Source: Escherichia coli
GTDB lineage: Bacteria; Pseudomonadota; Gammaproteobacteria; Enterobacterales; Enterobacteriaceae
Direction: 5' to 3' (one strand)
Length of the DNA: 64,000 nucleotides
Assembly: GCF_003334335.1 (NCBI RefSeq)
Contig: NZ_QOWQ01000018.1
The stretch's first letter is position 1. The number at the start of each line of letters is the position of its first letter. The notes below the pieces were generated by a model. It saw nothing but the letters and a program-made list of their open reading frames with translations. It made no database searches and was not told the origin of the DNA. The translations under genes were made by a program, and so were the position numbers. This document shows positions 13,540-17,297 of the stretch, in pieces.

Positions 13540-13750
13540 GGTTGGCGATTCTAATTAGCCAACAGGATTCGCGCCACTCATTTTTCTATGCTTATATTTA
13601 CTTTTGCACCTTATTACTTCACTGCGTGATCACTTTATTGATGGTTATTAAACCAATCACCAGCAAGAAGTGAAAAAACTGTGAGTAAGCGGGTGATAAA
13701 TGGTAAAAGTCATCTTGCTATAACAAGGCTTGCAGTGGAATAATGAGGCC

Positions 13751-14111
13751 GTTTCCGTGTCCATCCTTGTTAAAACAAGAAATTTTACGGAATAACCCAT
13801 TTTGCCCGACCGATCATCCACGCAGCAATGGCGTAAGACGTATTGATCTTTCAGGCAGTTAGCGGGCTGCGGGTTGCAGTCCTTACCGGTAGATGGAAAT
13901 ATTTCTGGAGAGTAATACCCAGTCTGTTTCTTTGATAATTGCGCTGTTTTTCCGCATGAAAAACGGGCAACCGACACTCTGCGCCTCTTTGAGCTGACGA
14001 TAACCGTGAGGTTGGCGACGCGACTAGACACGAGGCCATCGGTTCACACCCGGAAAGGCGTTACTTTGCCCGCAGCTTAGTCGTCAATGTAAGAATAATG
14101 AGTAAGTTACG
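13751..14111 (+). promoter_or_regulatory. rne 5' leader (autoregulatory UTR, ~361 nt in K-12); start approximate
   Basis: Long non-coding interval between rluC and rne; K-12 rne is known to carry a long structured leader through which RNase E autoregulates. Boundary not determined from sequence. Confidence 0.5.
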
Positions 14112-17100
14112 ATGAAAAGAATGTTAATCAACGCAACTCAGCAGGAAGAGTTGCGCGTTGCCCTTGTAGATGGGCAGCGTCTGTATGACCTGGATATCGA
14201 AAGTCCAGGGCACGAGCAGAAAAAGGCAAACATCTACAAAGGTAAAATCACCCGCATTGAACCGAGTCTGGAAGCTGCTTTTGTTGATTACGGCGCTGAA
14301 CGTCACGGTTTCCTCCCACTAAAAGAAATTGCCCGCGAATATTTCCCTGCTAACTACAGTGCTCATGGTCGTCCCAACATTAAAGATGTGTTGCGTGAAG
14401 GTCAGGAAGTCATTGTTCAGATCGATAAAGAAGAGCGCGGCAACAAAGGCGCGGCATTAACCACCTTTATCAGTCTGGCGGGTAGCTATCTGGTTCTGAT
14501 GCCGAACAACCCGCGCGCGGGTGGCATTTCTCGCCGTATCGAAGGCGACGACCGTACCGAATTAAAAGAAGCACTGGCAAGCCTTGAACTGCCGGAAGGC
14601 ATGGGGCTTATCGTGCGCACCGCTGGCGTCGGCAAATCTGCTGAGGCGCTGCAATGGGATTTAAGCTTCCGTCTGAAACACTGGGAAGCCATCAAAAAAG
14701 CCGCTGAAAGCCGCCCGGCCCCGTTCCTGATTCATCAGGAGAGCAACGTAATCGTTCGCGCATTCCGCGATTACTTACGTCAGGACATCGGCGAAATCCT
14801 TATCGATAACCCGAAAGTGCTCGAACTGGCACGTCAGCATATCGCTGCATTAGGTCGCCCGGATTTCAGCAGCAAAATCAAACTGTACACCGGCGAGATC
14901 CCGCTGTTCAGCCACTACCAGATCGAGTCACAGATCGAGTCCGCCTTCCAGCGTGAAGTTCGTCTGCCGTCTGGTGGTTCCATTGTTATCGACAGCACCG
15001 AAGCGTTAACGGCCATCGACATCAACTCCGCACGCGCGACCCGCGGCGGCGATATCGAAGAAACCGCGTTTAACACTAACCTCGAAGCTGCCGATGAGAT
15101 TGCTCGTCAGCTGCGCCTGCGTGACCTCGGCGGCCTGATTGTTATCGACTTCATCGACATGACGCCAGTACGCCACCAGCGTGCGGTAGAAAACCGTCTG
15201 CGTGAAGCGGTGCGTCAGGACCGTGCGCGTATTCAAATCAGCCATATTTCTCGCTTTGGCCTGCTGGAAATGTCCCGTCAGCGCCTGAGCCCATCACTGG
15301 GTGAATCCAGTCATCACGTTTGTCCGCGTTGTTCTGGTACTGGCACCGTGCGTGACAACGAATCGCTGTCGCTCTCTATTCTGCGTCTGATCGAAGAAGA
15401 AGCGCTGAAAGAGAACACCCAGGAAGTTCACGCCATTGTTCCTGTGCCAATCGCTTCTTACCTGCTGAATGAAAAACGTTCTGCGGTAAATGCCATTGAA
15501 ACTCGTCAGGACGGTGTGCGCTGTGTAATTGTGCCAAACGATCAGATGGAAACCCCGCACTACCACGTGCTGCGCGTGCGTAAAGGGGAAGAAACCCCAA
15601 CCTTAAGCTACATGCTGCCGAAGCTGCATGAAGAAGCGATGGCGCTGCCGTCTGAAGAAGAGTTCGCTGAACGTAAGCGTCCGGAACAACCTGCGCTGGC
15701 AACCTTTGCCATGCCGGATGTGCCGCCTGCGCCAACGCCAGCTGAACCTGCCGCGCCTGTTGTAGCTCCAGCACCGAAAGCTGCACCGGCAACACCAGCA
15801 GCTCCTGCACAACCTGGGCTGTTGAGCCGCTTCTTCGGCGCACTGAAAGCGCTGTTCAGCGGTGGTGAAGAAACCAAACCGACCGAGCAACCAGCACCGA
15901 AAGCAGAAGCGAAACCGGAACGTCAACAGGATCGTCGCAAGCCTCGTCAGAACAACCGCCGTGACCGTAATGAGCGCCGCGACACCCGTAGTGAACGTAC
16001 TGAAGGCAGCGATAATCGCGAAGAAAACCGTCGTAATCGTCGCCAGGCACAGCAGCAGACTGCCGAGACGCGTGAGAGCCGTCAGCAGGCTGAGGTAACG
16101 GAAAAAGCGCGTACCGCCGACGAGCAGCAAGCGCCGCGTCGTGAACGTAGCCGCCGCCGTAATGATGATAAACGTCAGGCGCAACAAGAAGCGAAGGCGC
16201 TGAATGTTGAAGAGCAATCTGTTCAGGAAACCGAACAGGAAGAACGTGTACGTCCGGTTCAGCCGCGTCGTAAACAGCGTCAGCTCAATCAGAAAGTGCG
16301 TTACGAGCAAAGCGTAGCCGAAGAAGCGGTAGTCGCACCGGTGGTTGAAGAAACTGTCGCTGCCGAACCAATTGTTCAGGAAGCGCCAGCTCCACGCACA
16401 GAACTGGTGAAAGTCCCGCTGCCAGTCGTAGCGCAAACTGCACCAGAACAGCAAGAAGAGAACAATGCTGATAACCGTGACAACGGTGGCATGCCGCGTC
16501 GTTCTCGCCGCTCGCCTCGTCACCTGCGCGTAAGTGGTCAGCGTCGTCGTCGCTATCGTGACGAGCGTTATCCAACCCAGTCGCCAATGCCGTTGACCGT
16601 AGCGTGCGCGTCTCCGGAACTGGCCTCTGGCAAAGTCTGGATCCGCTATCCAATTGTACGTCCGCAAGATGTACAGGTTGAAGAGCAGCGCGAACAGGAA
16701 GAAGTACATGTGCAGCCGATGGTGACTGAGGTCCCTGTCGCCGCCGCTATCGAACCGGTTGTTAGCGCGCCAGTTGTTGAAGAAGTGGCCGGTGTCGTAG
16801 AAGCCCCCGTTCAGGTTGCCGAACCGCAACCGGAAGTGGTTGAAACGACGCATCCTGAAGTGATCGCTGCCGCGGTAACTGAACAGCCGCAGGTGATTAC
16901 CGAGTCTGATGTTGCCGTAGCCCAGGAAGTTGCAGAACAAGCAGAACCGGTGGTTGAACCGCAGGAAGAGACGGCAGATATTGAAGAAGTTGTCGAAACT
17001 GCTGAGGTTGTAGTTGCTGAACCTGAAGTTGTTGCTCAACCTGCCGCGCCAGTAGTCGCTGAAGTCGCAGCAGAAGTTGAAACGGTAGCTGCGGTCGAAC

Positions 17101-17297
17101 CTGAGGTCACCGTTGAGCATAACCACGCTACCGCGCCAATGACGCGCGCTCCAGCACCGGAATATGTTCCGGAGGCACCGCGTCACAGTGACTGGCAGCG
17201 CCCTACTTTTGCCTTCGAAGGTAAAGGTGCCGCAGGTGGTCATACGGCAACACATCATGCCTCTGCCGCTCCTGCGCGTCCGCAACCTGTTGAGTAA
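14112..17297 (+). CDS. rne: Ribonuclease E
   Basis: 1061 aa [30 protein letters not shown]...; catalytic N-terminal half plus Arg/Pro/Glu-rich low-complexity C-terminal scaffold. Confidence 0.97.

What the first reader, a model, noticed from the sequence alone, without database searches (positions are those of the whole stretch)
13540..14111. Long rne leader with an antisense ORF (yceQ position)
The 572-bp rluC-rne gap matches the long autoregulatory leader of rne. A 124-codon minus-strand ORF (13657-14031) lies entirely within it, at the position where K-12 annotates the doubtful gene yceQ. I treat it as non-coding leader, but the ORF is flagged because leaders occasionally encode real small proteins.
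Basis: partly seen in the sequence, partly recalled or inferred. Interest (0 to 1): 0.2.

Follow-up and report, generated by a model that had tools for sequence, protein, structure and literature searches.

The report
rne leader with spurious antisense ORF
The rluC–rne gap of E. coli K-12 holds the rne promoter and its well-known structured, self-regulating 361-nt mRNA leader; the 124-codon ORF on the opposite strand (yceQ) is a by-product of that conserved RNA sequence, not a gene, so the finding is ordinary and already explained in the literature.

Summary
The rluC–rne gap is 13540-14111 (572 bp). A GTG-initiated 124-codon ORF lies at 13657-14031(-). K-12 annotates its 106-codon version, 13657-13977, as yceQ/b1085.

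The interpretation also holds, with one correction. Only 13751-14111 (361 nt) is the rne leader (Rfam rne5, 260 bits). The bases 13540-13750 are divergent promoter DNA that includes rne P1.

Across 91 Enterobacterales loci:
- The leader keeps its length and its plus-strand structure: 88% of cells paired, and 47 of 84 pairs show compensatory changes.
- The yceQ frame shows no codon periodicity.
- pN/pS is about 1 against Citrobacter, versus 0.008-0.06 for the flanking genes.
- The frame is intact only in Escherichia.

The 32 database "homologues" share only the antisense translation of the invariant hp2 loop and closing stem. Pfam, NCBIfam and PDB give no match, and PGAP calls no gene there.

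Published work reports no ribosome footprints and transposon insertions tolerated in one orientation. It also reports that synonymous recoding of three yceQ codons is non-viable.

Verdict: a known non-coding regulatory leader with a spurious antisense ORF. Already known, low interest.

The parts
13540..13750 (.). Divergent rluC/rne promoter region (not part of the P1 leader). Contains two conserved blocks, 13547-13558 and 13571-13598, whose function was not determined here.
   Evidence: Per-base conservation over 91 Enterobacterales loci. The region lies between the rluC ATG (13539) and the start of the Rfam rne5 match.
13679..13700 (.). Double DnaA box (CTGTGAGTAAGCGGGTGATAAA on the plus strand), inside the 3' part of the yceQ ORF and 15 bp upstream of the P1 -35 hexamer.
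   Evidence: The ChIP-seq table of PMC11317965 gives a peak at K-12 1,144,772 with motif tTTATCACCCgcTTACTCACAg. I located the sequence in the window. Conservation is moderate.
13715..13744 (+). rne P1 promoter: TTGCTA, 18-nt spacer, AATAAT, with an extended -10 TG. It places the transcription start at about 13751.
   Evidence: It is the only promoter-like site found on either strand in 13450-14200. The block 13706-13744 is 80-100% conserved. It lies immediately upstream of the start of the rne5 match.
13751..14111 (+). rne 5' untranslated leader (361 nt), the cis-acting element of RNase E autoregulation.
   Evidence: Rfam RF00040 rne5 matches 13751-14087 at 260.1 bits, E=3.9e-82, over the full model length. 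Length and structure are conserved across Enterobacterales.
13753..13792 (+). hp1, the 5'-terminal stem-loop of the leader.
   Evidence: Rfam consensus structure projected on the window. Helices 1-3 show compensatory changes, but only 60-92% of cells are paired in the MAFFT alignment.
13802..13858 (+). hp2, the conserved stem-loop reported to be bound by RNase E as the feedback sensor. Its apical part ACGCAGCAATGGCGTAAGACGT is nearly invariant.
   Evidence: Helices 4-7 are 89-100% paired, with CG to UA seen 22 times and CG to AU/UA 35 times. The invariant columns are listed. Caveat: 13825-13840 was the search motif, so it is invariant by construction in my set, but it is also in capitals in the Rfam consensus. 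The functional assignment comes from my own knowledge of Diwa et al. 2000 and Schuck et al. 2009.
13864..14078 (+). 3' multi-branched domain of the leader (hp3 region), closed by a long-range stem pairing 13864-13874 with 14068-14078.
   Evidence: The closing helix 8 is 97% paired, with GC to AU changes. Inner helices 9-17 show many compensatory changes. RNAalifold recovered the closing stem independently.
14088..14111 (+). Unstructured, highly conserved ribosome-binding stretch ahead of the rne ATG (14112).
   Evidence: Nearly invariant columns at the 3' end of alignment A1. Unpaired in the Rfam structure.
13657..14031 (-). The 124-codon GTG ORF. K-12 annotates its 106-codon version (13657-13977) as yceQ/b1085. 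Judged non-coding.
   Evidence: establish its existence. argue against coding.

Best explanation
The gap is the regulatory region of rne. P1 (13715-13744) starts a 361-nt structured 5' UTR (13751-14111). When RNase E is in excess, it recognises the hp2 stem-loop of this UTR and speeds up decay of its own mRNA, which gives feedback control.

The minus-strand ORF (yceQ) is not a gene. It is a stop-free reading of the complement of this RNA. Its central third ([24 protein letters not shown]) is the antisense translation of the invariant hp2 apex and the closing-stem sequence, so RNA-level selection holds it fixed. The flanks happen to be open only in Escherichia.

The reported 'essentiality' of yceQ comes from removing the rne promoter and leader.

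Shown here: the Rfam match, the structural covariation, the absence of any coding signature, and the taxonomic restriction of the ORF. Taken from the literature or my own knowledge: binding of RNase E to hp2 and the feedback mechanism.
For: RNA element:
- rne5 match at 260 bits, full length.
- The P1-like promoter sits exactly upstream.
- The rluC-rne gap length is conserved at about 552-600 bp in 81 of 91 loci across the order.
- With the Rfam structure on 81 leaders, 88.3% of cells are paired versus 32-44% with slid partners. 47 of 84 pairs have changes on both sides. There are 387 compensatory cells versus 100-140 when slid, and 0 of 500 shuffles reach the observed values.

Not coding:
- Entropy by codon position is 0.88/0.85/0.91, versus 0.13/0.05/0.94 for rne and 0.42/0.22/1.30 for rluC.
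- pN/pS against Citrobacter is 0.86-1.25, versus 0.008-0.063 for the flanking genes.
- The frame is intact only in 4 Escherichia loci. Citrobacter already has frameshifts or earlier stops, and all more distant taxa have 2-17 frameshifting indels.
- Only 32 clusters turn up among 5.8 billion proteins. Their lengths are 68-156 aa and their coverage of the query is 28-98%; the only segment they share is the antisense of the invariant RNA.
- No Pfam, NCBIfam or PDB match.
- PGAP annotates nothing there.
- No minus-strand promoter-like site was found.

Literature:
- No ribosome-profiling reads in three conditions, and the ORF is reported disrupted in some strains (10.1101/038851).
- Transposon insertions are tolerated only in the orientation that keeps rne transcribed.
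- CRISPRi strand bias fits a block of rne transcription.
- Synonymous Ser recoding of three yceQ codons is non-viable (PMC7614783; 10.1101/2025.03.09.641718).
Against: - The ORF is longer than in 99% of shuffles of the gap.
- It is kept intact in E. coli, E. albertii and two divergent Escherichia lineages. However, the region is at least 99% identical in 5416 of 5426 E. coli genomes, so intactness carries little information.
- Within Escherichia, pN/pS is 0.4-0.85, but this rests on only 4-8 substitutions.
- An SD-like AAGAGG precedes the annotated GTG at 13977. It is the complement of a conserved helix strand.
- ExcludonFinder lists rne-yceQ as a divergent overlap, which depends on the annotation.
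- I did not examine ribosome-profiling or RNA-seq data myself.
Confidence: 0.93

Rival explanations
1. yceQ is a real but young (de novo) Escherichia-restricted small protein, translated from a minus-strand transcript antisense to the rne leader at low level or only in untested conditions.
For: The ORF is intact in all four Escherichia lineages sampled. It is longer than in 99% of shuffles. An SD-like AAGAGG lies 7-12 nt upstream of GTG 13977. K-12 RefSeq still carries the annotation.
Against: No ribosome-profiling reads in three conditions. No minus-strand promoter-like site. No periodicity and pN/pS about 1 against the nearest genus. Intactness within Escherichia is uninformative because the DNA is at least 99% identical. 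Insertions that truncate the ORF exist in natural isolates at 13674-13676 and 13706-13714. Synonymous recoding is lethal, so the constraint is on the nucleotides.
Confidence: 0.03
2. The minus strand yields a functional non-coding antisense RNA, or a long rluC 5' UTR, that base-pairs with the rne leader (an 'excludon') and modulates rne or rluC expression. The ORF is incidental.
For: ExcludonFinder lists rne-yceQ among 16 divergent overlaps seen in at least 50% of 58 RNA-seq samples. A genomic SELEX peak for RNA polymerase holoenzyme with a minor sigma factor lies at K-12 1,144,848, which is window position about 13631.
Against: That tool scores overlap between the transcripts of annotated neighbours. 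Here the rne 5' UTR by definition overlaps the annotated yceQ, so the listing does not show minus-strand transcription. No minus-strand promoter-like site was found in 13450-14200. The SELEX peak lies outside the leader, near rluC. The covariation found is the intramolecular, plus-strand kind.
Confidence: 0.04

Closest known systems
Rfam RF00040 rne5 (RNase E 5' UTR element), the E. coli rne leader of Jain & Belasco 1995 and Diwa et al. 2000
   Same: This is the type sequence. The match covers the full model at 260 bits, lies directly upstream of rne, is 361 nt from P1 to the ATG, and has hp2 and the closing stem conserved with covariation.
   Different: Nothing material. The finding's 572-bp span also includes 211 bp of promoter DNA that is not part of the element.
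yceQ / b1085 ('DUF2655 domain-containing protein YceQ'), listed as essential in the Keio and PEC collections
   Same: Same frame and stop. The annotated gene is the 106-codon version (13657-13977) of the 124-codon ORF.
   Different: The annotation describes a protein, but the evidence shows none. Current Pfam-A and NCBIfam have no model that matches it. PGAP does not call it. Its essentiality is explained by the rne promoter and leader.
Other spurious ORFs inside 5' UTRs of essential genes that blocked genome recoding (for example yaaY, named together with yceQ)
   Same: A hypothetical ORF inside a regulatory 5' UTR. Synonymous recoding harms the neighbouring essential gene.
   Different: I did not examine yaaY. 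The comparison rests on one sentence in 10.1101/2025.03.09.641718.

Membership tests
Rfam RF00040 rne5 | Covariance-model score above the curated gathering threshold over the full model | tested here: met
   260.1 bits against a threshold of 180, model positions 1-333 of 333, E=3.9e-82.
Rfam RF00040 rne5 | Located in the 5' UTR directly upstream of the rne coding sequence and downstream of its promoter | tested here: met
   The match ends 24 nt before the rne ATG at 14112. A promoter-like site at 13715-13744 places the start at about 13751.
Rfam RF00040 rne5 | Conserved secondary structure supported by compensatory substitutions | tested here: met
   88.3% of cells paired versus 32-44% with slid partners; 47 of 84 pairs have changes on both sides; 0 of 500 shuffles reach the observed values.
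Rfam RF00040 rne5 | Confers RNase E-dependent feedback on the downstream gene (hp2 bound by RNase E) | not testable with these tools
   Known for this exact K-12 sequence from the literature (my own knowledge: Jain & Belasco 1995; Diwa et al. 2000; Schuck et al. 2009). Papers read refer to it.
Protein-coding gene (yceQ) | Reading frame conserved in related genomes | tested here: not met
   Intact only in 4 Escherichia loci. Frameshifts or premature stops are present in Citrobacter and in all other 80+ taxa.
Protein-coding gene (yceQ) | Three-base periodicity of substitutions and purifying selection on amino acids | tested here: not met
   Entropy by codon position is 0.88/0.85/0.91 versus 0.13/0.05/0.94 for rne. 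pN/pS is 0.86-1.25 versus 0.008-0.063 for the flanks.
Protein-coding gene (yceQ) | Evidence of translation (ribosome footprints or peptides) | not testable with these tools
   The literature reports no ribosome-profiling reads in three conditions (10.1101/038851). I did not re-analyse the data.
Pfam DUF2655 / any curated protein family | Significant match to a family model | tested here: not met
   No Pfam-A hit even at E<=10. No NCBIfam hit at E<=1. No PDB sequence below E=0.5. The DUF2655 label survives only as a source name in database entries.

The most novel reading that the evidence does not exclude
yceQ could be a very young Escherichia-specific gene that arose on the antisense strand of a conserved regulatory RNA and is expressed only under conditions not yet profiled. 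In that case the same 280 nt would be constrained both as the rne leader and as a coding sequence.
Probability: 0.03. Interest if true: 0.5.

Novelty: already known. Interest (0 to 1): 0.07.

Why it matters
Its value is mainly cautionary. yceQ shows how a conserved structured RNA can generate a database "protein family" (DUF2655) and a false "essential gene". It also shows why synonymous genome recoding fails at such sites. For this scan, the region should be recorded as the rne promoter plus the rne5 leader, with no protein-coding gene on the minus strand.

Tried and rejected
1. RNAalifold on the plain MAFFT alignment of 81 leaders recovered only 36 pairs, because the variable hairpins are misaligned. 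I therefore projected the Rfam structure onto the alignment and counted pairs.

2. A custom covariance model of the whole leader was not built. The alignment has 506 columns against a 400-column limit, and calibration of a model of about 360 nt would exceed the time limit.

3. E. coli and Shigella "variant" proteins P0007, P0009 and P0016 look like frameshifted yceQ. They come from single assemblies and could be indel errors. I do not use them as proof that the ORF is broken in natural strains, and rely instead on the IS insertions and on Price et al..

4. A second copy of the 16-mer search motif occurs in two Yersinia species (L007, L071). It lies inside a permease-like coding gene on the other strand, with no similarity beyond 17 nt and no rne5 match, so it is a chance match. 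About 139 chance hits of a 16-mer are expected in 298 Gb. This fits the 22 of 120 hits in which no rne start was found: about 20 lie outside Enterobacterales, and a few of the 22 are Enterobacterales loci truncated before rne.

5. Plus-strand small ORFs in the leader (13743-13862, 13843-13935, 13893-13997) are not conserved in start codon or length. The conserved ATG at 13743 is part of the P1 -10 region.

6. The papers that map rne p2 and p3 (Ow et al. 2002) and that first localised the recoding problem (Fredens et al. 2019) are not held. The p2 and p3 positions are therefore not given.

7. The ExcludonFinder listing 'rne-yceQ' was examined and judged to depend on the annotation.

Full report
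**Observation.** The window is 100% identical to E. coli K-12 MG1655 over the region. rluC occupies 12580-13539 on the minus strand and rne occupies 14112-17297 on the plus strand. The gap is therefore 13540-14111, 572 bp, as stated. The ORF list gives 13657-14031(-), 124 aa, with a GTG start, wholly inside the gap. NC_000913.3 annotates yceQ (b1085, 'DUF2655 domain-containing protein YceQ') at 1144502-1144822. This converts to window 13657-13977(-): the same frame and stop, starting at an internal GTG, 106 aa. A PGAP-annotated K-12 record has no feature there. In a spread sample of 60 RefSeq E. coli genomes, every record lists 'none' under the match. An ORF of at least 124 codons wholly inside the gap occurs in 1.1% of 5000 dinucleotide-preserving shuffles, and one of at least 106 codons in 4.0%. 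It is locally somewhat unusual, but ORF length alone means little here. The same window has a 560-codon ORF antisense to the rne coding sequence (15603-17285).

**What is on the plus strand.** Rfam's rne5 model (RF00040) matches 13751-14087 over its full length at 260.1 bits (threshold 180, E=3.9e-82). The only sigma-70-like site on either strand in 13450-14200 is TTGCTA-18-AATAAT with an extended -10 TG at 13715-13744(+). That places a start at about 13751, exactly 361 nt before the rne ATG. So the leader is 13751-14111, and the remaining 211 bp (13540-13750) are divergent promoter DNA.

**Comparative data.** Of these, 98 carry the rne start 280-420 nt downstream. For 90 of them (plus K-12) the whole rluC-rne gap was available. 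They span Escherichia, Citrobacter, Enterobacter, Klebsiella-like MAGs, Kluyvera, Pantoea, Erwinia, Serratia, Yersinia, Dickeya, Pectobacterium, Photorhabdus, Xenorhabdus, Edwardsiella, Hafnia and others. The gap length is held at about 552-600 bp in most loci. Caveat: loci were selected by that 16-mer, so 13825-13840 is invariant by construction, and leaders lacking it were not sampled.

**RNA-level constraint.** I projected the Rfam consensus structure onto the K-12 sequence. This gives 84 pairs, of which 81 are canonical in K-12. I then counted the pairs on a MAFFT alignment of 81 leaders.
- 88.3% of cells form standard pairs, against 32-44% when the 3' partners are slid by 1-3 columns.
- 47 of 84 pairs show changes on both sides.
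- There are 387 compensatory cells, against 100-140 in the slid controls and 161±12 in shuffles.
- None of 500 shuffles reached any observed measure.
- Examples are UA to CG in 27 sequences at columns 355/410, CG to UA in 22 at columns 93/144, and GC to UA in 27 at columns 175/433.

RNAalifold run independently recovered the long-range closing stem and several hairpins, with 17 covarying pairs. Conservation peaks at the P1 promoter (13706-13744), the hp2 apex, the closing-stem strands and the ribosome-binding stretch.

**Coding tests on the minus strand.**
- *Periodicity.* Column entropy by codon position in the yceQ frame is 0.88/0.85/0.91. The first 300 nt of rne and rluC from the same genomes give 0.13/0.05/0.94 and 0.42/0.22/1.30.
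- *Selection.* Against Citrobacter, the nearest genus at about 90% identity, pN/pS in the yceQ frame is 0.86-1.25, with substitutions spread 14-17/8-11/10-14 over codon positions. The adjacent 372 nt of rne and rluC give 0.008-0.063. Within Escherichia there are only 4-8 substitutions, too few to interpret.
- *Frame integrity.* The frame is intact only in E. coli K-12, E. albertii and two divergent Escherichia lineages, where the stop moves to give 127 codons. Citrobacter species have a stop at codon 49-106 or frameshifting indels. Every more distant genus has 2-17 frameshifting indels and several in-frame stops. The annotated GTG at 13977 is a start codon in only 42 of 91 loci.
- *Database families.* A search of 5.8 billion proteins found only 32 clusters, all enterobacterial. 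They are 68-156 aa long and cover 28-98% of the query. Reading the sequences shows that the one shared segment is ...[24 protein letters not shown].... This is the translation of the complement of TTAGCGGGCTGCGGGTTGCAG (the closing-stem strand) and ACGCAGCAATGGCGTAAGACGT (the hp2 apex). On either side the sequences switch frames or diverge. Current Pfam-A, NCBIfam and PDB sequences give no match.
- *Other ORFs.* Plus-strand small ORFs in the leader are likewise not conserved.

**Population and natural insertions.** The 411 bp around the ORF are at least 99% identical in 5416 of 5426 complete E. coli genomes. Intactness of the ORF within the species is therefore uninformative. Three complete genomes carry IS elements in the gap:
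- IS1 with a 9-bp duplication of 13605-13613 in strain FORC 064.
- ISEc11 at 13674-13676 in an O121 strain.
- IS1 with a duplication of 13706-13714, directly abutting the P1 -35 hexamer, in strain Z22-2.

The last two truncate the ORF by 6 and 18 codons. All three lie upstream of P1, and none enters the 361-nt leader.

**Literature.**
[quoted passage not shown] - Goodall et al. reach the same conclusion from TraDIS (10.1101/237842).
- Rousset et al. show CRISPRi effects only for guides oriented to block rne transcription (10.1101/308916).
[quoted passage not shown] This is attributed to effects on regulation of the adjacent essential gene (10.1101/2025.03.09.641718). A change that preserves the protein but is lethal is direct evidence that the constraint is on the nucleotides.
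- By spacing, the three positions probably correspond to codons 20, 25 and 33 (window 13972-74, 13957-59, 13933-35). Two of these lie in paired leader positions. This mapping is my inference.

**Mechanism.** The best-supported account has four steps.
1. P1 transcribes a 361-nt leader that folds into hp1 (13753-13792), hp2 (13802-13858) and a multi-branched 3' domain (13864-14078). An open ribosome-binding stretch follows.
2. RNase E recognises hp2 and accelerates decay of its own mRNA, which holds enzyme levels constant. This step is established for this sequence in the literature (my own knowledge: Jain & Belasco 1995; Diwa et al. 2000; Schuck et al. 2009) and was not tested here.
3. The antisense ORF exists because the complement of the invariant RNA core happens to lack stop codons in one frame. 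RNA-level selection keeps that core fixed, and the less constrained flanks are open only in Escherichia.
4. The Keio 'essentiality' of yceQ reflects deletion of the rne promoter and leader.

**Rivals.** Two rivals remain: a young Escherichia-specific protein, or a functional antisense transcript. Neither is strictly excluded, because I could not inspect ribosome-profiling or TSS data directly. Neither has positive support beyond ORF length, an SD-like AAGAGG that is the complement of a helix strand, and an annotation-dependent 'excludon' listing.

**Verdict.** The feature is already known and its apparent oddity is already explained. Interest is low.

Noticed in passing
Related loci: L038, L075, L114 (Citrobacter), L076 (Pseudocitrobacter), L079, L031 and L111 (Kluyvera), inserted after window-equivalent 13891; L023 and L101 (Erwinia), inserted after window-equivalent 13785: About ten species carry a 108-128-nt insertion inside the rne leader, at two different sites. 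The inserts fold as long imperfect palindromes (-24 to -55 kcal/mol). The Citrobacter copies match both ERIC PCR-primer cores 17/22, adjacent and in order, so they look like ERIC/MITE-type repeats sitting in the RNase E autoregulatory leader. The primer sequences are from memory.
   Followed up: partly
window 13605-13613, 13674-13676, 13706-13714 (seen in L123, L124, L125): Three complete E. coli genomes have IS1 or ISEc11 insertions in the rluC-rne gap. All lie upstream of rne P1, and one directly abuts the -35 hexamer. None enters the 361-nt leader. The upstream promoter DNA therefore appears dispensable in nature.
   Followed up: yes
window 13679-13700: A double DnaA box reported from ChIP-seq (PMC11317965) lies 15 bp upstream of the rne P1 -35 hexamer, inside the yceQ ORF. 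It is only moderately conserved across Enterobacterales.
   Followed up: partly
window 13547-13558 and 13571-13598: Two strongly conserved blocks lie next to the rluC start, well upstream of rne P1. Their function was not determined. Candidates are the rluC promoter or 5' UTR, or the upstream rne promoters p2 and p3. A published RNA-polymerase SELEX peak lies nearby at about 13631.
   Followed up: no
window 15603-17285 (-): A 560-codon ORF runs antisense to the C-terminal half of rne, and several other ORFs of 80-155 codons also run antisense to rne. They are presumably composition artefacts of the repetitive Arg/Glu/Pro-rich region.
   Followed up: no
E. coli genome collection (hits to window 13400-14250 and 13640-14050): Five matches to this chromosomal region lie on records classed as plasmids, and a few genomes have two copies. 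These were not examined.
   Followed up: no
L007:963-978 and L071:1897-1912 (Yersinia artesiana, Y. thracica): A second exact copy of the hp2 16-mer lies inside a permease-like gene on the opposite strand. There is no further similarity to the leader and no rne5 match, so it was judged a chance match. An STnc240 sRNA match lies about 500 nt away.
   Followed up: yes
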